From Zygophlyctis sp. KS116 (taxonomy: Eukaryota > Fungi > Chytridiomycota), in the NCBI GenBank assembly GCA_054661495.1, contig BAAFSQ010000460.1, positions 1 through 5,979 of the forward strand: DNA of 5,979 bases. Reading direction: 5' to 3'. The notes under the pieces were generated by a model that was given only the letters and a program-made list of their open reading frames with translations, was not told the origin of the DNA and searched no databases. This document shows positions 1 through 5,784 of this stretch, piece after piece. Positions within the stretch are counted from its first letter, which is position 1. Each line of letters opens with the position of its first letter. The position numbers and the translations under genes are program-made.

Positions 1-309
1 TATGCCTGTCAACTCGATGCCAGAAGTAAATAATCAGGCTCCACCAAATGCAGGAGGATCTGATACCTCAACTGTACCACCAGCATCTCAACAAAATCAG
101 AATGAACGTTCAGAGGTAGCTCCTATGCCTGTCAACTCGATGCCAGAAGTAAATAATCAGGCTCCACCAAATGCAGGAGGATCTGATACCTCAACTGTAC
201 CACCAGCATCTCAACAAAATCAGAATGAACGTTCAGAGGTAGCTCCTATGCCTGTCAACTCGATGCCAGAAGTAAATAATCAGGCTCCACCAAATGCAGG
301 AGGATCTGA
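1..309 (+). repeat. Coding tandem repeat, 123-bp (41-aa) unit, about 2.5 identical copies visible
   Basis: Units start at ATG 2, 125 and 248 (MPVNSMPEVNNQAPPNAGGSDTSTVPPASQQNQNERSEVAP). Identity breaks at 310, and a degenerate sub-copy (PPNAGSD...QQNQNE) follows. Confidence 0.97.
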
Positions 310-940
310 GGGGTCAGTTTTACCACCAAATGCAGGATCTGATCCACTAGCGCTTCAACAAAACCAGAATGAAGGATCGAATGATTCAGATCCATCATTA
401 TTAAATCCAAGCAGAGATTCTCAAGTTCCATCAAATAGTGCTGCTGAAAATACAAGTGGATCCCTTACATCTCAAGAAAATCAGAATGAAGATCAAATTT
501 TTGATGCGACCGATCTGCTAAATTTGGATGGAAAGTCAGAATTCGAATCCCCGACTTCAATCACTGGCGATGTCCAGATTCAAGACACGACAACGCAGCA
601 GGTGGTGCCATCCTCACCTCCGAAAGATACAACACAGACAACCCCGACTGATTATCAAAATGAATCCAATTCGGAATCAGGAAACTCTTCTATTTCTGCA
701 ATTGCGGGTGGCGTTGCAGCTGCACTTGTACTTTTAATTTTTGCAGTTGGAATGATCATGTATCGACAAGATAAGTATCAAAAGAGACGGTCATCTTTAA
801 CTTCTGAAGTAGAATCTGTCACTACCTGCAGTACTTTGGACGACCGATCTATTAAATCTAGCGGCAGTAGTATTCCAGTGATCTCAACCAGCAATCCATT
901 TCACAGCAGGAATTCTCCACGGAATGCCATAAACTTTTAA
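2..940 (+). CDS. 5'-partial S/T/P/N/Q-rich mucin-like type I membrane protein with tandem repeats (Mid2/Wsc/Skg6-like architecture)
   Basis: The frame is open from the window start and begins inside a repeat, so the true start is upstream. A low-complexity ectodomain is followed by one hydrophobic segment, IAGGVAAALVLLIFAVGMIMY (~701-763), then basic residues RQDKYQKRR and a Ser-rich tail ending at TAA 938-940. Confidence 0.8.
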   Translation: MPVNSMPEVNNQAPPNAGGSDTSTVPPASQQNQNERSEVAPMPVNSMPEVNNQAPPNAGGSDTSTVPPASQQNQNERSEVAPMPVNSMPEVNNQAPPNAGGSEGSVLPPNAGSDPLALQQNQNEGSNDSDPSLLNPSRDSQVPSNSAAENTSGSLTSQENQNEDQIFDATDLLNLDGKSEFESPTSITGDVQIQDTTTQQVVPSSPPKDTTQTTPTDYQNESNSESGNSSISAIAGGVAAALVLLIFAVGMIMYRQDKYQKRRSSLTSEVESVTTCSTLDDRSIKSSGSSIPVISTSNPFHSRNSPRNAINF

Positions 941-2067: not shown

Positions 2068-2177
2068 TAATATTAAAAGCATTTTATTGCACTTATAGAA
2101 TTAAAAAGAGTTTAAAAAGTTTTTATTACTTTGAATTAAAGGATATAATCCCCTTTAATCCGATTTAAAATTTGGGA

Positions 2178-3518
2178 ATGCCCAGTCATCGCTTCAACAT
2201 TCCTCTATTGCCCAGAGACGGTGAGAATATTATAAACGTTGCAAAACTATTACAAAAGCCTGAATTTATAATTGATCAAGAAGATGATGACGATGAGGAA
2301 ATAGAAATAATTCCTGCTCTTGGAAGTTCAATTTCTGCAAAGAGAAAAAAGAAATTTGATCCTGAAGAAGAGTATGATTTACATGATGATTTTATTGATG
2401 ATTCTGATCTCATGTATCAGCAAATAATGGTTAATGAGGGTGAACAGGAAAAAGTATTGGAATGGAAATATGGATATTTTGCTTGGAGAGGAGATGTACA
2501 ATCATTTATTGACGAAATTCAAGAGAAAAAATCTAAAAAGATTAGACAAAGAACTTCAATGACTTCTACAATTGGGATGGGGACTCAAGCGATGGCTAGT
2601 CAGAGTCCAGTCAAGAAGAAATCGCCAGTCAAGAAAATTAAAAAGGAACTAGGAAAACCAATTTCAGGAATTTCAGGAGTCACGGAAAAAGTTGAAATTA
2701 AATCTGATGGTCTTGTTCCTCTACATCCATGGGTACAAGAGAAAATGGATTTGTTGGATCAGGAAGCTAAAAAGATTTCATGGGAAGATAAACCAAAACA
2801 ATTTCCTCAAAATTTAAAAGAAATTGCATACCAAGCAGGTATTTATTCTAATATTTTTATATATTAGCAAAAATCTCTCTAGAAACTAAAACTTACAACT
2901 CTGAACATTTTGTTAAATATCTAACAAGTATTGTACCTTATAATACATTTACAATGAAAAAATTTATAGGAAAAATGGTTATTCCTGAACAGCTGGAATT
3001 ATTGACTAAAGAGGTTTCTAAAAAATTCTAAAAAATAGGTTGATTTTACATATTCAATACTACGAGAACATTTAGAAAAAAATATTCCAGCTCCTTTTAA
3101 TAGGGAACCAGAGTATAAATTTAAATGGGATGAAGATTCAAGAGCTTTAATTTGGAATATATTATGTTTAGAGTGGGAAGTAGCAAAATTAGACAATGAA
3201 TTAAATTCTTATCAGAAATTAGCACCAAATTTCAAAGAAACCAGTGTTAGAAAGTCTGTTTATGAAAAATTAAGTACATTTTGGCCTTCAGGATTAATGG
3301 ACTCTTCAACAATTTCAAAAGAATACTCAATGATTAGAAGTCGAGTTATCAAATTAGAAAAAAGGGGAGATTTGATAGTAGATAAAACAGTCTCTGGAAT
3401 TATTTTTAGACGTGATCCATTTTCAAAGTTTACAAAGAGTAAATCTATTGAAAGTGAAACGTCTATACAGATTCCTCAAAAGAGTCTAGTCAAGTCTGAA
3501 CCAATTTGTATAGACTAA
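2178..3518 (+). CDS. HPC2: HPC2/ubinuclein-family HIRA complex subunit; join(2178..2838,2868..3013,3039..3518), 428 aa
   Basis: HUN/HRD motif YDLHDDFIDDSD...YGYFAWRG (~2373-2492). Removing two GT-AG introns gives a continuous 1287-nt frame with ubinuclein middle-domain motifs VPYNTFTMKK, KFKWDEDSRALI and RKSVYEKLSTFWPSGLMDSSTISKEYS. The first ATG is 2178; the track start at 2172 is TTG. Confidence 0.88.
2839..2867 (+). other. 29-nt spliceosomal intron 1 of HPC2/UBN (phase 1)
   Basis: CAG|gtatttattctaatatttttatatattag|CA, with a branch-point-like CTAAT. Removing it joins the HUN exon to the PYNTFTMKK exon in frame. Confidence 0.85.
3014..3038 (+). other. 25-nt spliceosomal intron 2 of HPC2/UBN (phase 0)
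   Basis: GAG|gtttctaaaaaattctaaaaaatag|GTT. It contains an in-frame TAA, and removing it restores the frame through KFKW and FWPSGLM to stop 3518. Confidence 0.82.
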
Positions 3519-3581
3519 TTTCGTGTTTTAAATGAGATTTTTGTATGTAGAATGTGGTGAAACATTTCTAGTATCTGCTTC
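3295..3581 (+). repeat. Left copy of a 287-bp perfect direct repeat (HPC2 3' end, 13-bp spacer, first 50 nt of WHI2)
   Basis: Compared base by base, it is identical to 4690-4976 (offset 1395). The flanks mismatch at 3294/4689 and 3582/4977. Confidence 0.97.
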
Positions 3582-3612
3582 AGGCAATGCGCTATCAAAA
3601 ATCCATATTTAA
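3532..3612 (+). pseudogene. Truncated duplicate of the WHI2 5' end fused to insert sequence (26 aa)
   Basis: MRFLYVECGETFLVSAS is identical to the 4927 ORF, then GNALSKIHI* is read from the insert, with the stop at 3610-3612. Confidence 0.8.
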
Positions 3613-4008
3613 ATCCATTATCCAGTGTTCTTTTTGTGAATGCTTTATAATTTTTGCTTCCACCTTGGCGAGTTGCCTTTAGATAGACATCTAGTGTCTG
3701 CCTTAAAGATTAGATCCAGGCTCCAGGTCAGACACTGGACAGGAATTCATGATAGTTTTCCAAGTTAATACACTCATCTGTGTCACAGTTCCATTAATGC
3801 TTAACAAATGCCTGCCCTTACTCATCATTCTCCATCGATCTCCTCTTGCTGCACATTCTAGAGTAAGGTGTTCAATCTACAGAGTGCACGGGTTATACAA
3901 GTAAAATCTATCAAAATTATAACGCTCCCGTATCACCGCCCTTGGAGAAAGTTTTATCGGAAGTTTCATCGGCTAAATATTATTATCTAGTGAAAAGAAT
4001 AATATAAA

Positions 4009-4293
4009 ATGCAGAGAGCCATGAAAGTATATGTATGTTTAAGTGGAGTGATGGGCCTCTATGGATTAAGTAGAGGTTACAGAGCACACTATGAAAATGA
4101 AAAAGAAAGATTAACTGGGGATAAACTTACCTATGCTGCATTTACGGGTTTCCTTTATGCTTCACCTATTTGGAATATATCTCATATGATTAAATTATTT
4201 AATCGTTTAGAAATCGAATATAAAGGATTAAATAGAGATGATTATCAGAATAATTATGAAGAATTAAATGGTTATTGTTACGACACAATTTAG
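4009..4293 (+). CDS. 94-aa hypothetical protein with two moderately hydrophobic segments, resembling small giant-virus (Nucleocytoviricota) ORFs
   Basis: Complete intronless ORF with an A-rich start context (aataatataaaATG) and protein-like composition. The pattern GLYGLSRGYR...LFNRLEIEYKGL..DDY...YEE recalls NCLDV hypothetical proteins. The viral assignment is pattern recognition only. Confidence 0.65.
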   Translation: MQRAMKVYVCLSGVMGLYGLSRGYRAHYENEKERLTGDKLTYAAFTGFLYASPIWNISHMIKLFNRLEIEYKGLNRDDYQNNYEELNGYCYDTI

Positions 4294-4309
4294 AAACAAT
4301 TTCAAATTT

Positions 4310-4338
4310 AATAAAATTCATTTTATTTTAAAATAAAA
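4310..4338 (+). terminator. Overlapping AT-rich inverted repeats just 3' of the 94-aa ORF, a possible 3'-end signal
   Basis: AATAAAAT-tc-ATTTTATT (4310-4327) and the perfect 18-bp palindrome TTTTATTTTAAAATAAAA (4321-4338); also contains AATAAA. Confidence 0.35.
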
Positions 4339-4392
4339 ATTATGTACAATCAATTCATTGAAGAGATTATTGATATGATGTTTAAGTAGTGA

Positions 4393-4692
4393 CGTTCTTC
4401 AGGTCAATACTCTCCTCATGGGTCGAGTAGTTTTATTAGTTGCTGCACTGTCACTTCTACTTCCCCTCAATGCTGTTGGGCTGTTGCACCATGGACCATA
4501 ATAGGCATAGCTATTCCGACTGGGATCTTATCTTCAGATTACAGTTGTTGTACTCAGCCTTTGTCTGGCATAACTAATATTACTGAGATTTATTGGCCTA
4601 GTAAAGTGCTTTCAGGCTCAATTCCCGTAGAGATGGGCACATCTGTAATTATTTTTTTACAATTTAAATTTAAAGATGGATTTAGAACATAA
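4393..4692 (+). pseudogene. Start-less fragment of a Cys-rich plus plant-type LRR gene (LRR N-cap and start of first repeat)
   Basis: A stop-free frame absent from the ORF track: RSSGQYSPHGSSSFISCC...QCCWAVAPWTIIG...YSCCTQPLSGITNITEIYWPSKVLSGSIPVEMG. LSGSIPxExG is the plant-specific/RLK-type LRR signature. A putative 31-nt intron (4645-4675, gtaatt...tttaaag) is followed by MDLEHN, matching LxLxxN. Confidence 0.65.
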
Positions 4693-4976
4693 TGGACTCT
4701 TCAACAATTTCAAAAGAATACTCAATGATTAGAAGTCGAGTTATCAAATTAGAAAAAAGGGGAGATTTGATAGTAGATAAAACAGTCTCTGGAATTATTT
4801 TTAGACGTGATCCATTTTCAAAGTTTACAAAGAGTAAATCTATTGAAAGTGAAACGTCTATACAGATTCCTCAAAAGAGTCTAGTCAAGTCTGAACCAAT
4901 TTGTATAGACTAATTTCGTGTTTTAAATGAGATTTTTGTATGTAGAATGTGGTGAAACATTTCTAGTATCTGCTTC
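4690..4976 (+). repeat. Right copy of the 287-bp perfect direct repeat
   Basis: Identical to 3295-3581; it continues into the full WHI2 reading frame. Confidence 0.97.
4692..4913 (+). pseudogene. Duplicated C-terminal 73 codons of HPC2/UBN, not an independent gene
   Basis: Identical to 3297-3518, the end of HPC2 exon 3. It begins at an internal Met of the WPSGLM motif. Confidence 0.8.
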
Positions 4977-5784
4977 TCTGTTATCTATTTTCCCTTGTAA
5001 TTGGGGCAGAGAAGCCATTTCAGGACCAGTGTCTTTTATACAAGATGATTCTGTAGAATTATTTAAAAAGATTATCTGTAACAAGCAGAGTCCAGTCAAG
5101 ATTAATTATAATCCTAAATTATTTCTACATCTACTGACTACATTATCTAAAATTCTAAAAAATAACAATCAAATCTATTCTTGCTTGTCAAAACAGGACT
5201 CTGGCTATGATTCTTTATCTACAATTTCACTATTAAATACAACTTGTCCCTCAAATTCAATTTTATTTCTCTCAGAAACTCTTGAATACTACTCAATGTC
5301 TAGTAAAAAGAAATATAAATTGGAAATTGGAAAATATTTAGTTGAAGAAACTAGTCTAAAATCATCATTTTACCATTGTTCAAATGAAAAAGGCCAGGAA
5401 TTACTTGAATTATTAACTGTAAAAACTAATCTAAATTCTAATCATGACTGGGGAATTCGTATTTTAGAAGAAAATACTTGCAGGATTAGATCAATGTATA
5501 TATGTAGTGTAAATGATCCTATAAACAAGTCTATACCTAGAAAATCTAATTATCAAATCAAGAATCAAAATTCTGTTATTACGCAAATTAATGAATCAAT
5601 TCAAGATTTACAATCCCATGGAGATTTTAAGGATTTTATAGATTCTAGAAAATCAATAATGAAAACAGTCTGGGAAAAATATGAATTTGAAGACACAAAT
5701 CACGGCCTTCAACTGTGTAATGGAGCAAATTTAAAAGTATGGTGTAGAAAAACTTGGAGTATAGATTTTCCAAACATATTTTAA
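4927..5784 (+). CDS. WHI2: Divergent Whi2-like protein (KCTD-type BTB/POZ fold; Psr phosphatase partner family)
   Basis: Ordered motif matches to fungal Whi2 as I recall it: FLVSASLLSIFP, VKINYNPKLF (VxFDPxxF/L), ILFLSETLEYY (IIVLREDLDFY), KLEIGKYL, QELLELL (EQHLIEML), DWGIRILEENTCRIRSM (DxWGxRxxEPNKxxIxSL) and LKVWCRKTWSID (KVWIRRVWTLE). Confidence 0.8.
   Translation: MRFLYVECGETFLVSASLLSIFPCNWGREAISGPVSFIQDDSVELFKKIICNKQSPVKINYNPKLFLHLLTTLSKILKNNNQIYSCLSKQDSGYDSLSTISLLNTTCPSNSILFLSETLEYYSMSSKKKYKLEIGKYLVEETSLKSSFYHCSNEKGQELLELLTVKTNLNSNHDWGIRILEENTCRIRSMYICSVNDPINKSIPRKSNYQIKNQNSVITQINESIQDLQSHGDFKDFIDSRKSIMKTVWEKYEFEDTNHGLQLCNGANLKVWCRKTWSIDFPNIF

What the first reader, a model, noticed from the sequence alone, without database searches (positions are those of the whole stretch)
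3295..4976. Mosaic 1.1-kb cassette flanked by 287-bp perfect direct repeats of host genic DNA, a circle-integration-like footprint
Seen: 3295-3581 equals 4690-4976 with no mismatch, around 1108 bp of unrelated sequence. The repeat is ordinary host sequence (HPC2 end and WHI2 start), not an LTR. Known: transposon TSDs are usually 2-20 bp. A long exact duplication is the product expected from single-crossover integration of a circle carrying a piece of the target locus, or from template-switching repair (MMBIR/FoSTeS). Inference: a 1395-bp chimeric extrachromosomal circle, or a multi-template repair patch, integrated very recently. It could be a transposase-free route for capturing foreign and host fragments, and could loop out again. 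A chimeric read, MDA product or misassembly is a serious alternative.
Basis: partly seen in the sequence, partly recalled or inferred. Interest (0 to 1): 0.8.

Follow-up and report, generated by a model that had tools for sequence, protein, structure and literature searches.

The report
Giant-virus scrap in old repair patch
In a freshwater microbial eukaryote (likely a chytrid-like fungus), a 1.1-kb patchwork of host repeats, a two-gene scrap of giant-virus-like DNA and a broken host gene sits between two copies of 287 host bases; diverged strains in other studies carry it too, and it likely arose as an old DNA-repair patch rather than a freshly integrated circle.

Summary
The 287-bp exact repeat (3295-3581 = 4690-4976) and the 1108-bp insert are real. 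Contigs from two other studies bridge each junction, so a chimeric read or misassembly is very unlikely. It is not recent: strain X4 carries the insert at 4.0% divergence against 1.15% in the flanks, and in run X5 the two copies differ at two sites, each in the dead half of its copy. The insert joins multi-copy host pieces (3582 to about 3950), a virus piece (about 3990-4399) and an LRR pseudogene piece (4400-4689). The virus piece holds a whole 94-codon gene, its spacer and the first 14 codons of the next gene; the same gene pair lies in 4 of 6 viral loci, on contigs up to 473 kb, so the donor was likely giant-virus genomic DNA. The layout matches a 'cycle of templated insertions' with re-replication of the target. 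Circle integration gives the same product and is not excluded. Contig depth hints that X1 and X2 carry both filled and empty alleles. Identical copies in the window likely reflect recombination or assembly collapse, not youth.

The parts
2178..3518 (+). HPC2/ubinuclein-like host gene; predicted exons 2178-2838, 2868-3013, 3039-3518 with 29-nt and 25-nt GT-AG introns; its end lies in repeat copy 1
   Evidence: Pfam HUN and UBN_AB; intron candidates read from the sequence; exon phases fit by arithmetic; splicing not tested
3295..3581 (+). Repeat copy 1: working HPC2-like 3' end, 13-nt spacer, dead start of the next ORF (ATG 3532)
   Evidence: in X5 and X6 it carries 3545 A>G, which would be Y>C in the next ORF
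3582..3950 (.). String of short pieces of multi-copy host sequence (about 3582-3645, 3647-3739, 3740-3789, 3800-3925); family unidentified; right boundary approximate
   Evidence: Other contigs of the same runs match each piece and run on into different sequence (loose ends); three X3 contigs of 8.8-29.6 kb end in the first piece; no Pfam, Rfam or protein hit
4009..4293 (+). Whole 94-codon ORF of a family found on large viral contigs; frame open but likely decaying
   Evidence: 162 clusters at E<=0.001; 45-48% identical members in IMG/VR contigs; start ATAAAATG shared with L011; 7 of 7 listed strain differences change the residue
4294..4399 (+). Viral intergenic spacer (48 nt) and first 14 codons of the next viral gene (ATG 4342), cut off; DNA likeness to the virus runs to about 4392-4399
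   Evidence: 13 of 14 residues identical to the gene that follows the family member in L011; DNA alignment; pair kept in 4 of 6 loci
4400..4689 (+). Broken piece of a multi-copy host leucine-rich-repeat gene, with indels against its paralogs and a possible 31-nt intron at 4645-4675
   Evidence: phmmer: all 22 PDB hits are plant LRR receptor-type proteins, best E 7.8e-4; paralog loose ends at 4400, 4444, 4554, 4575; intron is weak, since X4-X6 read T at 4674
4690..4976 (+). Repeat copy 2: dead HPC2-like 3' end serving as 237 nt of upstream DNA, and the working start of the next ORF
   Evidence: in X4, X5 and X6 it carries 4691 A>T, which would be L>F in the HPC2-like frame
4927..5784 (+).
   Evidence: one 99%-identical protein of the same length; no Pfam or PDB hit

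Best explanation
The insert is a real, old patchwork of host repeat pieces, giant-virus-like DNA and an LRR gene piece between two copies of 287 host bases, and it likely formed in one DNA-repair event of the 'cycle of templated insertions' type. In that model a broken or stalled end at 3581 copied or captured several DNA templates, then rejoined the chromosome 285-287 nt behind its starting point, so that stretch was copied twice (inferred). One template would have been genomic DNA of a giant virus present in the cell (gene pair and spacer shown; infection of this host inferred). The long duplication likely let the insert survive: only 13 nt separate the two host genes, and the duplication leaves the first gene 63 nt of 3' flank and the second 237 nt of upstream DNA (lengths shown; benefit inferred). 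Since then the insert has decayed neutrally, and recombination between the copies or with an empty allele, or collapse by the assembler, has likely made the window's copies identical.
For: Real: left junction bridged by X5 (67/64 letters) and X6 (122/31), right by X4 (240/287), X5 (568/32) and X6 (211/140), two studies; X2 holds 3552-4719 as one contig with 0 differences. Old: X4 differs at 36 of 892 insert sites and 30 of 2602 flank sites, Fisher p 4e-7 (the 36 includes an upper-bound 7 for 4450-4689); eight X5-X7 contigs differ by 1.9-9.9%. Copies diverge in other strains: the X5 graph branches at 3326/4721 and 3515/4910, matching 4691 A>T and 3545 A>G, both residue-changing in the dead half of their copy. 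DNA donor: gene, spacer and cut-off next gene match a viral gene pair. Several donors: loose ends at each piece. No transposon hallmarks: no terminal inverted repeat between the insert ends, no Pfam transposase or RT hit in any insert frame of 40 aa or more that was scanned (8 of them). Same layout as 'cycles' in PMC7025897 (passages); multi-fragment templated insertions occur in yeast (PMC11724301, passages).
Against: The final sequence cannot tell a one-step patch from integration of a ready-made circle. No microhomology is visible at either outer junction from the target side, and the donors were not in hand. The pieces may have been joined earlier at another locus and moved as one block: one X5 contig over 3616-3928 has depth 8.3 against about 5 for flanks. 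The insert starts exactly where other copies of the first piece also begin, which suits a mobile-element end. With 3-4% neutral divergence the two copies should differ at about 4.5-6 sites (P of none 0.011-0.0025), so the model needs an added homogenising step that was not observed. X4-X7 are metagenome contigs at depth 2-10, where strain mixtures can mimic copy differences. The join between the repeat pieces and the virus piece is only approximately placed.
Confidence: 0.6

Rival explanations
1. A 1395-nt circle that already held the mosaic and 287 nt of the target integrated by single crossover, and may loop out and re-enter, which would also keep the copies alike.
For: Gives exactly this layout (geometry). 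Contig depth hints at filled and empty alleles together in X1 and X2: insert/flank 0.40 and 0.48, repeat/flank 1.66 in X2. X2's repeat is one 287-nt contig with 0 differences, which needs recent recombination or bubble removal.
Against: Needs a prior event to join the target piece to the mosaic, i.e. the same repair step plus one more. No circle seen; contigs cannot show one, because its junction words equal those of the integrated form. The known yeast case (region B) integrated without target duplication (PMC3053389, passages). Depth is only a hint; the tool warns it is no copy number.
Confidence: 0.17
2. A mobile element end drove the insertion: 3582 is the terminus of an interspersed repeat (non-LTR 3' end or one-ended DNA element) that carried or jumped onto other templates and made an unusually long target duplication.
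For: Other copies of the first piece begin at the same few letters behind different flanks, and three long X3 contigs end there. Long target duplications exist for the R9 retrotransposon (title cited in PMC3636483, passages; its 126-bp length is recalled).
Against: No RT, endonuclease or transposase hit; no poly-A or terminal inverted repeat at the insert ends. The virus piece has an intergenic spacer and a cut-off second gene, which points to DNA rather than mRNA. The shared start could equally be an exon boundary of a gene family (the flanks end in AAAAG).
Confidence: 0.13
3. The mosaic was assembled stepwise at another, repeat-rich locus (old viral insert inside an LRR gene region) and then copied here as a single template, with the same re-replication of the target.
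For: The pieces are decayed against their paralogs (indels at 4444 and 4575); X5 depth 8.3 over 3616-3928 may mean a second copy.
Against: In X2 the insert is one unbranched contig, so no exact second copy exists there; decay could have happened in place.
Confidence: 0.08
4. Chimeric read, amplification product or misassembly.
For: No raw reads were available, only contigs; X1 may be the source of the window. The perfect identity of the copies may be assembler-made.
Against: Both outer junctions and the virus/LRR join recur in runs of other studies with their own substitutions (virus/LRR join in X5, X6, X7, three studies).
Confidence: 0.02

Closest known systems
Cycles of templated insertions (Li et al. 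2020, PMC7025897; passages read)
   Same: A string of segments from different sources inserted at one locus, returning to the host chromosome so that a host segment is re-replicated.
   Different: Described as somatic events in human cancers with self templates; here an inherited allele of a wild microbial eukaryote, 1.1 kb in all, with one template from a virus.
Complex templated insertions at yeast double-strand breaks (PMC11724301; passages read)
   Same: Multi-fragment, copy-paste inserts from distant, often repetitive loci, with 0-4 nt microhomology to the break ends.
   Different: Made at an induced break in repair mutants; the passages read report no long target duplication.
Patch-repair tandem duplications in rice (PMC7971508; passages read)
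   Same: Duplication of target DNA ascribed to repair of adjacent nicks, on a scale of tens to hundreds of bases.
   Different: Those are plain tandem copies, mostly under 200 bp; here 1108 nt of other DNA lies between the copies.
Giant-virus fossils in zoosporic fungi, Mycodnaviridae (PMC13533422; passages read)
   Same: Giant-virus DNA inside a host contig of otherwise host genes.
   Different: Those are capsid genes or 350-kb proviruses with inverted terminal repeats; here a 0.4-kb scrap with no core gene, inside a mosaic with direct host repeats. Membership of the donor in Mycodnaviridae was not tested.
Circle-mediated transfer of region B in wine yeast (PMC3053389; passages read)
   Same: Foreign DNA in a fungal genome without a transposase.
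   Different: 17 kb, has a replication origin, several circularly permuted insertions, junctions generally unchanged; here one locus and a 287-nt duplication.

Membership tests
Cycle of templated insertions | Two or more segments from separate sources strung together at one locus | tested here: met
   At least three source types; loose ends at piece boundaries, viral gene pair, LRR piece
Cycle of templated insertions | String returns to the host chromosome and re-replicates a host segment | tested here: met
   287-nt direct duplication with both host genes whole; junctions bridged
Cycle of templated insertions | All junctions arose in one event, donors copied and left in place | not testable with these tools
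   No host genome held; paralogs seen only as loose ends
Single-crossover circle integration | Direct repeat of target DNA around the insert | tested here: met
Single-crossover circle integration | Free circle, or the same circle integrated at other sites or permutations | not testable with these tools
   Only contigs were served; no joints listed
LTR retrotransposon | Repeats are element LTRs and the inside encodes gag-pol | tested here: not met
   Repeats are host gene sequence; no retroelement domain in the 8 insert frames scanned
TIR DNA transposon / Pack-type element | Terminal inverted repeats and a 2-11 nt target duplication | tested here: not met
   Ends not complementary; duplication 287 nt
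Helitron | 5'-TC and CTRR-3' ends, no target duplication (features recalled) | tested here: not met
   Ends read AGGC...AACA, or TGTT...GCCT on the other strand; long duplication present
Non-LTR retrotransposon with long target duplication (R9-like) | RT/endonuclease sequence or A-rich 3' tail, RNA-derived body | tested here: inconclusive
   No hit for the minus-strand frames and no tail, but the family at 3582-3950 is unidentified
Endogenous Nucleocytoviricota element | Sequence homologous and syntenic to giant-virus genomes | tested here: met
   Gene pair in 4 of 6 viral loci on contigs of 62-473 kb; one locus of the second gene is labelled GVMAG; neighbours on carrier contigs include D5-type primase, Erv1/Alr, PolX, thymidine kinase, Bro-N; no prokaryote genome hit
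Endogenous Nucleocytoviricota element | Hallmark capsid or VLTF3 gene on a carrier contig | tested here: inconclusive
   0 of 1 in the 53-kb fragment G001; the larger contigs are not held for whole-record search

The most novel reading that the evidence does not exclude
The unit is a transposase-free in/out switch: the 287-nt host duplication lets a 1395-nt circle carrying giant-virus DNA pop out and re-enter its own site, so filled and empty alleles interconvert within a lineage and the copies stay identical; such long-duplication patches would be a general route by which compact, gene-dense genomes of virus-infected zoosporic eukaryotes take up viral DNA without breaking genes.
Probability: 0.12. 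Interest if true: 0.75.

Novelty: new variant of a known kind. Interest (0 to 1): 0.5.

Why it matters
It is a small, fully readable case of how giant-virus DNA can enter a eukaryote chromosome without an integrase: as one of several templates in a repair patch. It also ties a group of uncultured 200-470 kb freshwater viruses to a candidate host lineage, because the scrap keeps their gene order. It warns that identical flanking repeats are no clock: here identical copies flank an insert that is about 4% diverged between strains. The insert itself looks neutral, so its weight is mechanistic and ecological, not functional.

Tried and rejected
No whole genome is held, so the scan for other long-repeat inserts could not be run. 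Run X3 (share of words 0.79) shows no cover over 4001-4400; this may mean it lacks the insert, but a filter drops records and a hole proves nothing. No run listed a joint that skips the insert, so the empty allele was never seen directly; X1-X3 have no cover right of about 4720-4976. No RNA holder was listed. A 25-nt pattern from the first repeat piece found nothing in metagenome or viral contigs. The 57-aa minus-strand frame 3706-3876, which has a zinc-knuckle-like look (recalled), had no homolog at E 10; a LINE reading is therefore unsupported. The viral ORF found no relative in metagenome contigs or prokaryote genomes by pattern scan, and none in viral contigs with the single sequence. Rfam: no hit in 3200-5100. 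The protein atlas gave no answer. I first read the near-absence of flank differences in X2 as proof that the empty allele is a recent pop-out, then dropped it as proof: depth bookkeeping fits equally a 59:41 pair of haplotypes with removed bubbles. A retained LRR intron as proof of a DNA donor was weakened because X4-X6 lack the AG. The rice PNAS paper on patch repair was not held. Locus L008 (17-residue match) was not used.

Full report
Observation. The window holds two identical 287-nt stretches, 3295-3581 and 4690-4976, 1395 nt apart. The repeat spans the end of an HPC2/ubinuclein-like gene (Pfam HUN and UBN_AB), a 13-nt spacer and the first 50 nt of a 285-codon ORF. Copy 1 completes the first gene; copy 2 supplies the start of the second. 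Both genes are whole. The WHI2 label is recalled motif likeness only: Pfam, PDB and the protein search did not confirm it. The host is a eukaryote with predicted introns of 25-29 nt; 'chytrid-like' is my recalled impression from the LRR piece and was not tested.

Is it real? No genome is held, so I used public runs. Twenty were listed and 7 were laid, all as contigs. X2, a third study, holds 3552-4719 as one contig with no difference and 30 repeat letters on each side; X1, which may be the source, holds 3612-4719. The virus/LRR join is bridged in X5, X6 and X7 as well. An artefact is very unlikely.

Is it recent? No. X4 differs from the window at 36 of 892 insert sites (4.0%; 7 of them an upper bound) and at 30 of 2602 flank sites (1.15%), Fisher p 4e-7; eight insert contigs of X5-X7 differ by 1.9-9.9%. 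In X5 the contig graph branches 30 letters from positions 3296/4691 and 3545/4940, and the table lists 4691 A>T on the copy-2 contig and 3545 A>G on the copy-1 contig. Each would change a residue, and each lies in the half of its copy that no longer codes. X6 shows both changes and X4 the first. Two further repeat differences (4799 or 3404, and 4880) are silent in the HPC2-like frame. These are low-depth metagenome contigs, so strain mixtures could add to the picture. At this age the window's copies should differ at about 4.5-6 of 300 free sites (P of none 0.011-0.0025). Their identity therefore needs gene conversion, loop-out and re-entry, or collapse by the assembler; none was observed.

Allele state. 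Per-contig depth of the insert is 0.40 (X1) and 0.48 (X2) of the flank, and X2's repeat is 1.66 of the flank; in X5 insert and flanks are about equal (1.06). This hints at filled plus empty alleles in X1 and X2 and a fixed insert in X5. It is a hint only: the tool warns that depth is no copy number, and the empty allele was not seen directly.

What the insert is made of. (a) 3582 to about 3950: short pieces, each matched by other contigs that run on into different sequence at about 3590, 3645, 3740, 3789, 3805 and 3923. The family is unidentified. (b) About 3990-4399: an ORF at 4009-4293 whose family has 162 clusters at E up to 0.001. Members lie on IMG/VR contigs of 20, 53, 412 and 473 kb. 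In the 473-kb contig the next gene begins with 13 of the 14 residues that follow the ORF in the window, behind a spacer of similar length; DNA identity is 73% over 208 nt. The pair is kept in 4 of 6 loci found with the second gene, two of them on contigs with an identical 4.3-kb stretch; one of the other two is labelled GVMAG. Carrier contigs encode D5-type primase, Erv1/Alr, PolX, thymidine kinase, Bro-N and collar proteins, as Nucleocytoviricota do (recalled); capsid and VLTF3 were not found in the one fragment that could be searched. All 7 listed strain differences in the ORF change the residue (40 rows shown, 68 not shown); random change would give this with P 0.23, so it fits neutral decay. 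(c) 4400-4689: a broken LRR gene piece (best PDB E 7.8e-4, all 22 hits plant LRR receptor-type proteins) with many paralogs in the runs.

Mechanism. Shown: several sources, a viral donor with gene, spacer and cut-off next gene, a long direct duplication, no element hallmarks. Inferred: an end at 3581 copied or captured these templates and rejoined 285-287 nt back. That is the definition of a 'cycle' of templated insertions in PMC7025897 (passages). Multi-fragment copy-paste inserts are known at yeast breaks (PMC11724301, passages) and nick-repair duplications in rice (PMC7971508, passages). Because only 13 nt separate the two host genes, an insert without duplication would likely cut one gene off from its 3' flank or the other from its promoter; the duplication leaves 63 nt and 237 nt. 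That may be why this event survived (inference). Circle integration yields the same sequence but needs an extra step, and the yeast region B circle left junctions generally unchanged (PMC3053389, passages). A mobile-element end at 3582 remains open, because other copies of the first piece begin at the same letters.

Novelty. Giant-virus fossils in zoosporic fungi are published (PMC13533422, passages). Four literature searches (listings only, open-access library) showed no paper on a multi-template patch with giant-virus DNA and a long host duplication; that is weak evidence of absence. No supplements were read. Earlier notes of this scan had nothing on this genome or sequence; a word search gave two prokaryote cases. 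Verdict: real, old, likely neutral; a new variant of a known rearrangement class, of interest as a small record of viral DNA uptake and as a host clue for uncultured giant viruses.

Noticed in passing
window 2093-2206: X1 shows two alleles at depth 52 and 39; the 39 allele shares 2123 T>A and an extra A behind 2146 with strain X4, and its depth is close to that of the insert (36.7). The window carries the 52 allele, so it may be a mosaic of two haplotypes.
   Followed up: partly
window 1-369: 123-nt tandem unit, 2.5 exact copies, inside a 312-codon frame that ends in a predicted membrane helix; depth in X1-X3 is far above the flank, so the real array is likely longer.
   Followed up: no
window 2-940 and 1045-2067: Two neighbouring low-complexity Ser/Pro/Gln-rich ORFs, each with a hydrophobic stretch near the C-terminus; likely surface proteins; no Pfam family under E 0.1.
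   Followed up: no
window 2839-2867 and 3014-3038: Predicted introns of only 29 and 25 nt, unusually short for a fungus (comparison recalled).
   Followed up: partly
window 4321-4338: 18-nt perfect AT palindrome in the viral spacer; mimivirus transcripts end at hairpins (recalled), but AT-only palindromes arise easily by chance.
   Followed up: no
window 3590-3645: First insert piece has summed depth above 3000 in X1 but about 260 in X2 and 250-530 in X3, so the family may differ strongly in copy number between samples.
   Followed up: no
window 4337-4340: X4 has contigs that match up to here and run on for over 200 letters into other sequence; may be other organisms' AT-rich DNA or a related virus.
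   Followed up: no
P0001: An 81%-identical whole version of the viral ORF on a 570-nt contig; may be another strain's insert or a closer virus; its K at residue 76 agrees with X4 and X6.
   Followed up: partly
L004 13011-15176, L002 18572-19951, L001 11661-12152, L016 11373-12578: The viral contigs carry a hybrid histidine kinase, a chitin-synthase-like glycosyltransferase, a weak ATG8-like hit and an HMG-CoA reductase.
   Followed up: no
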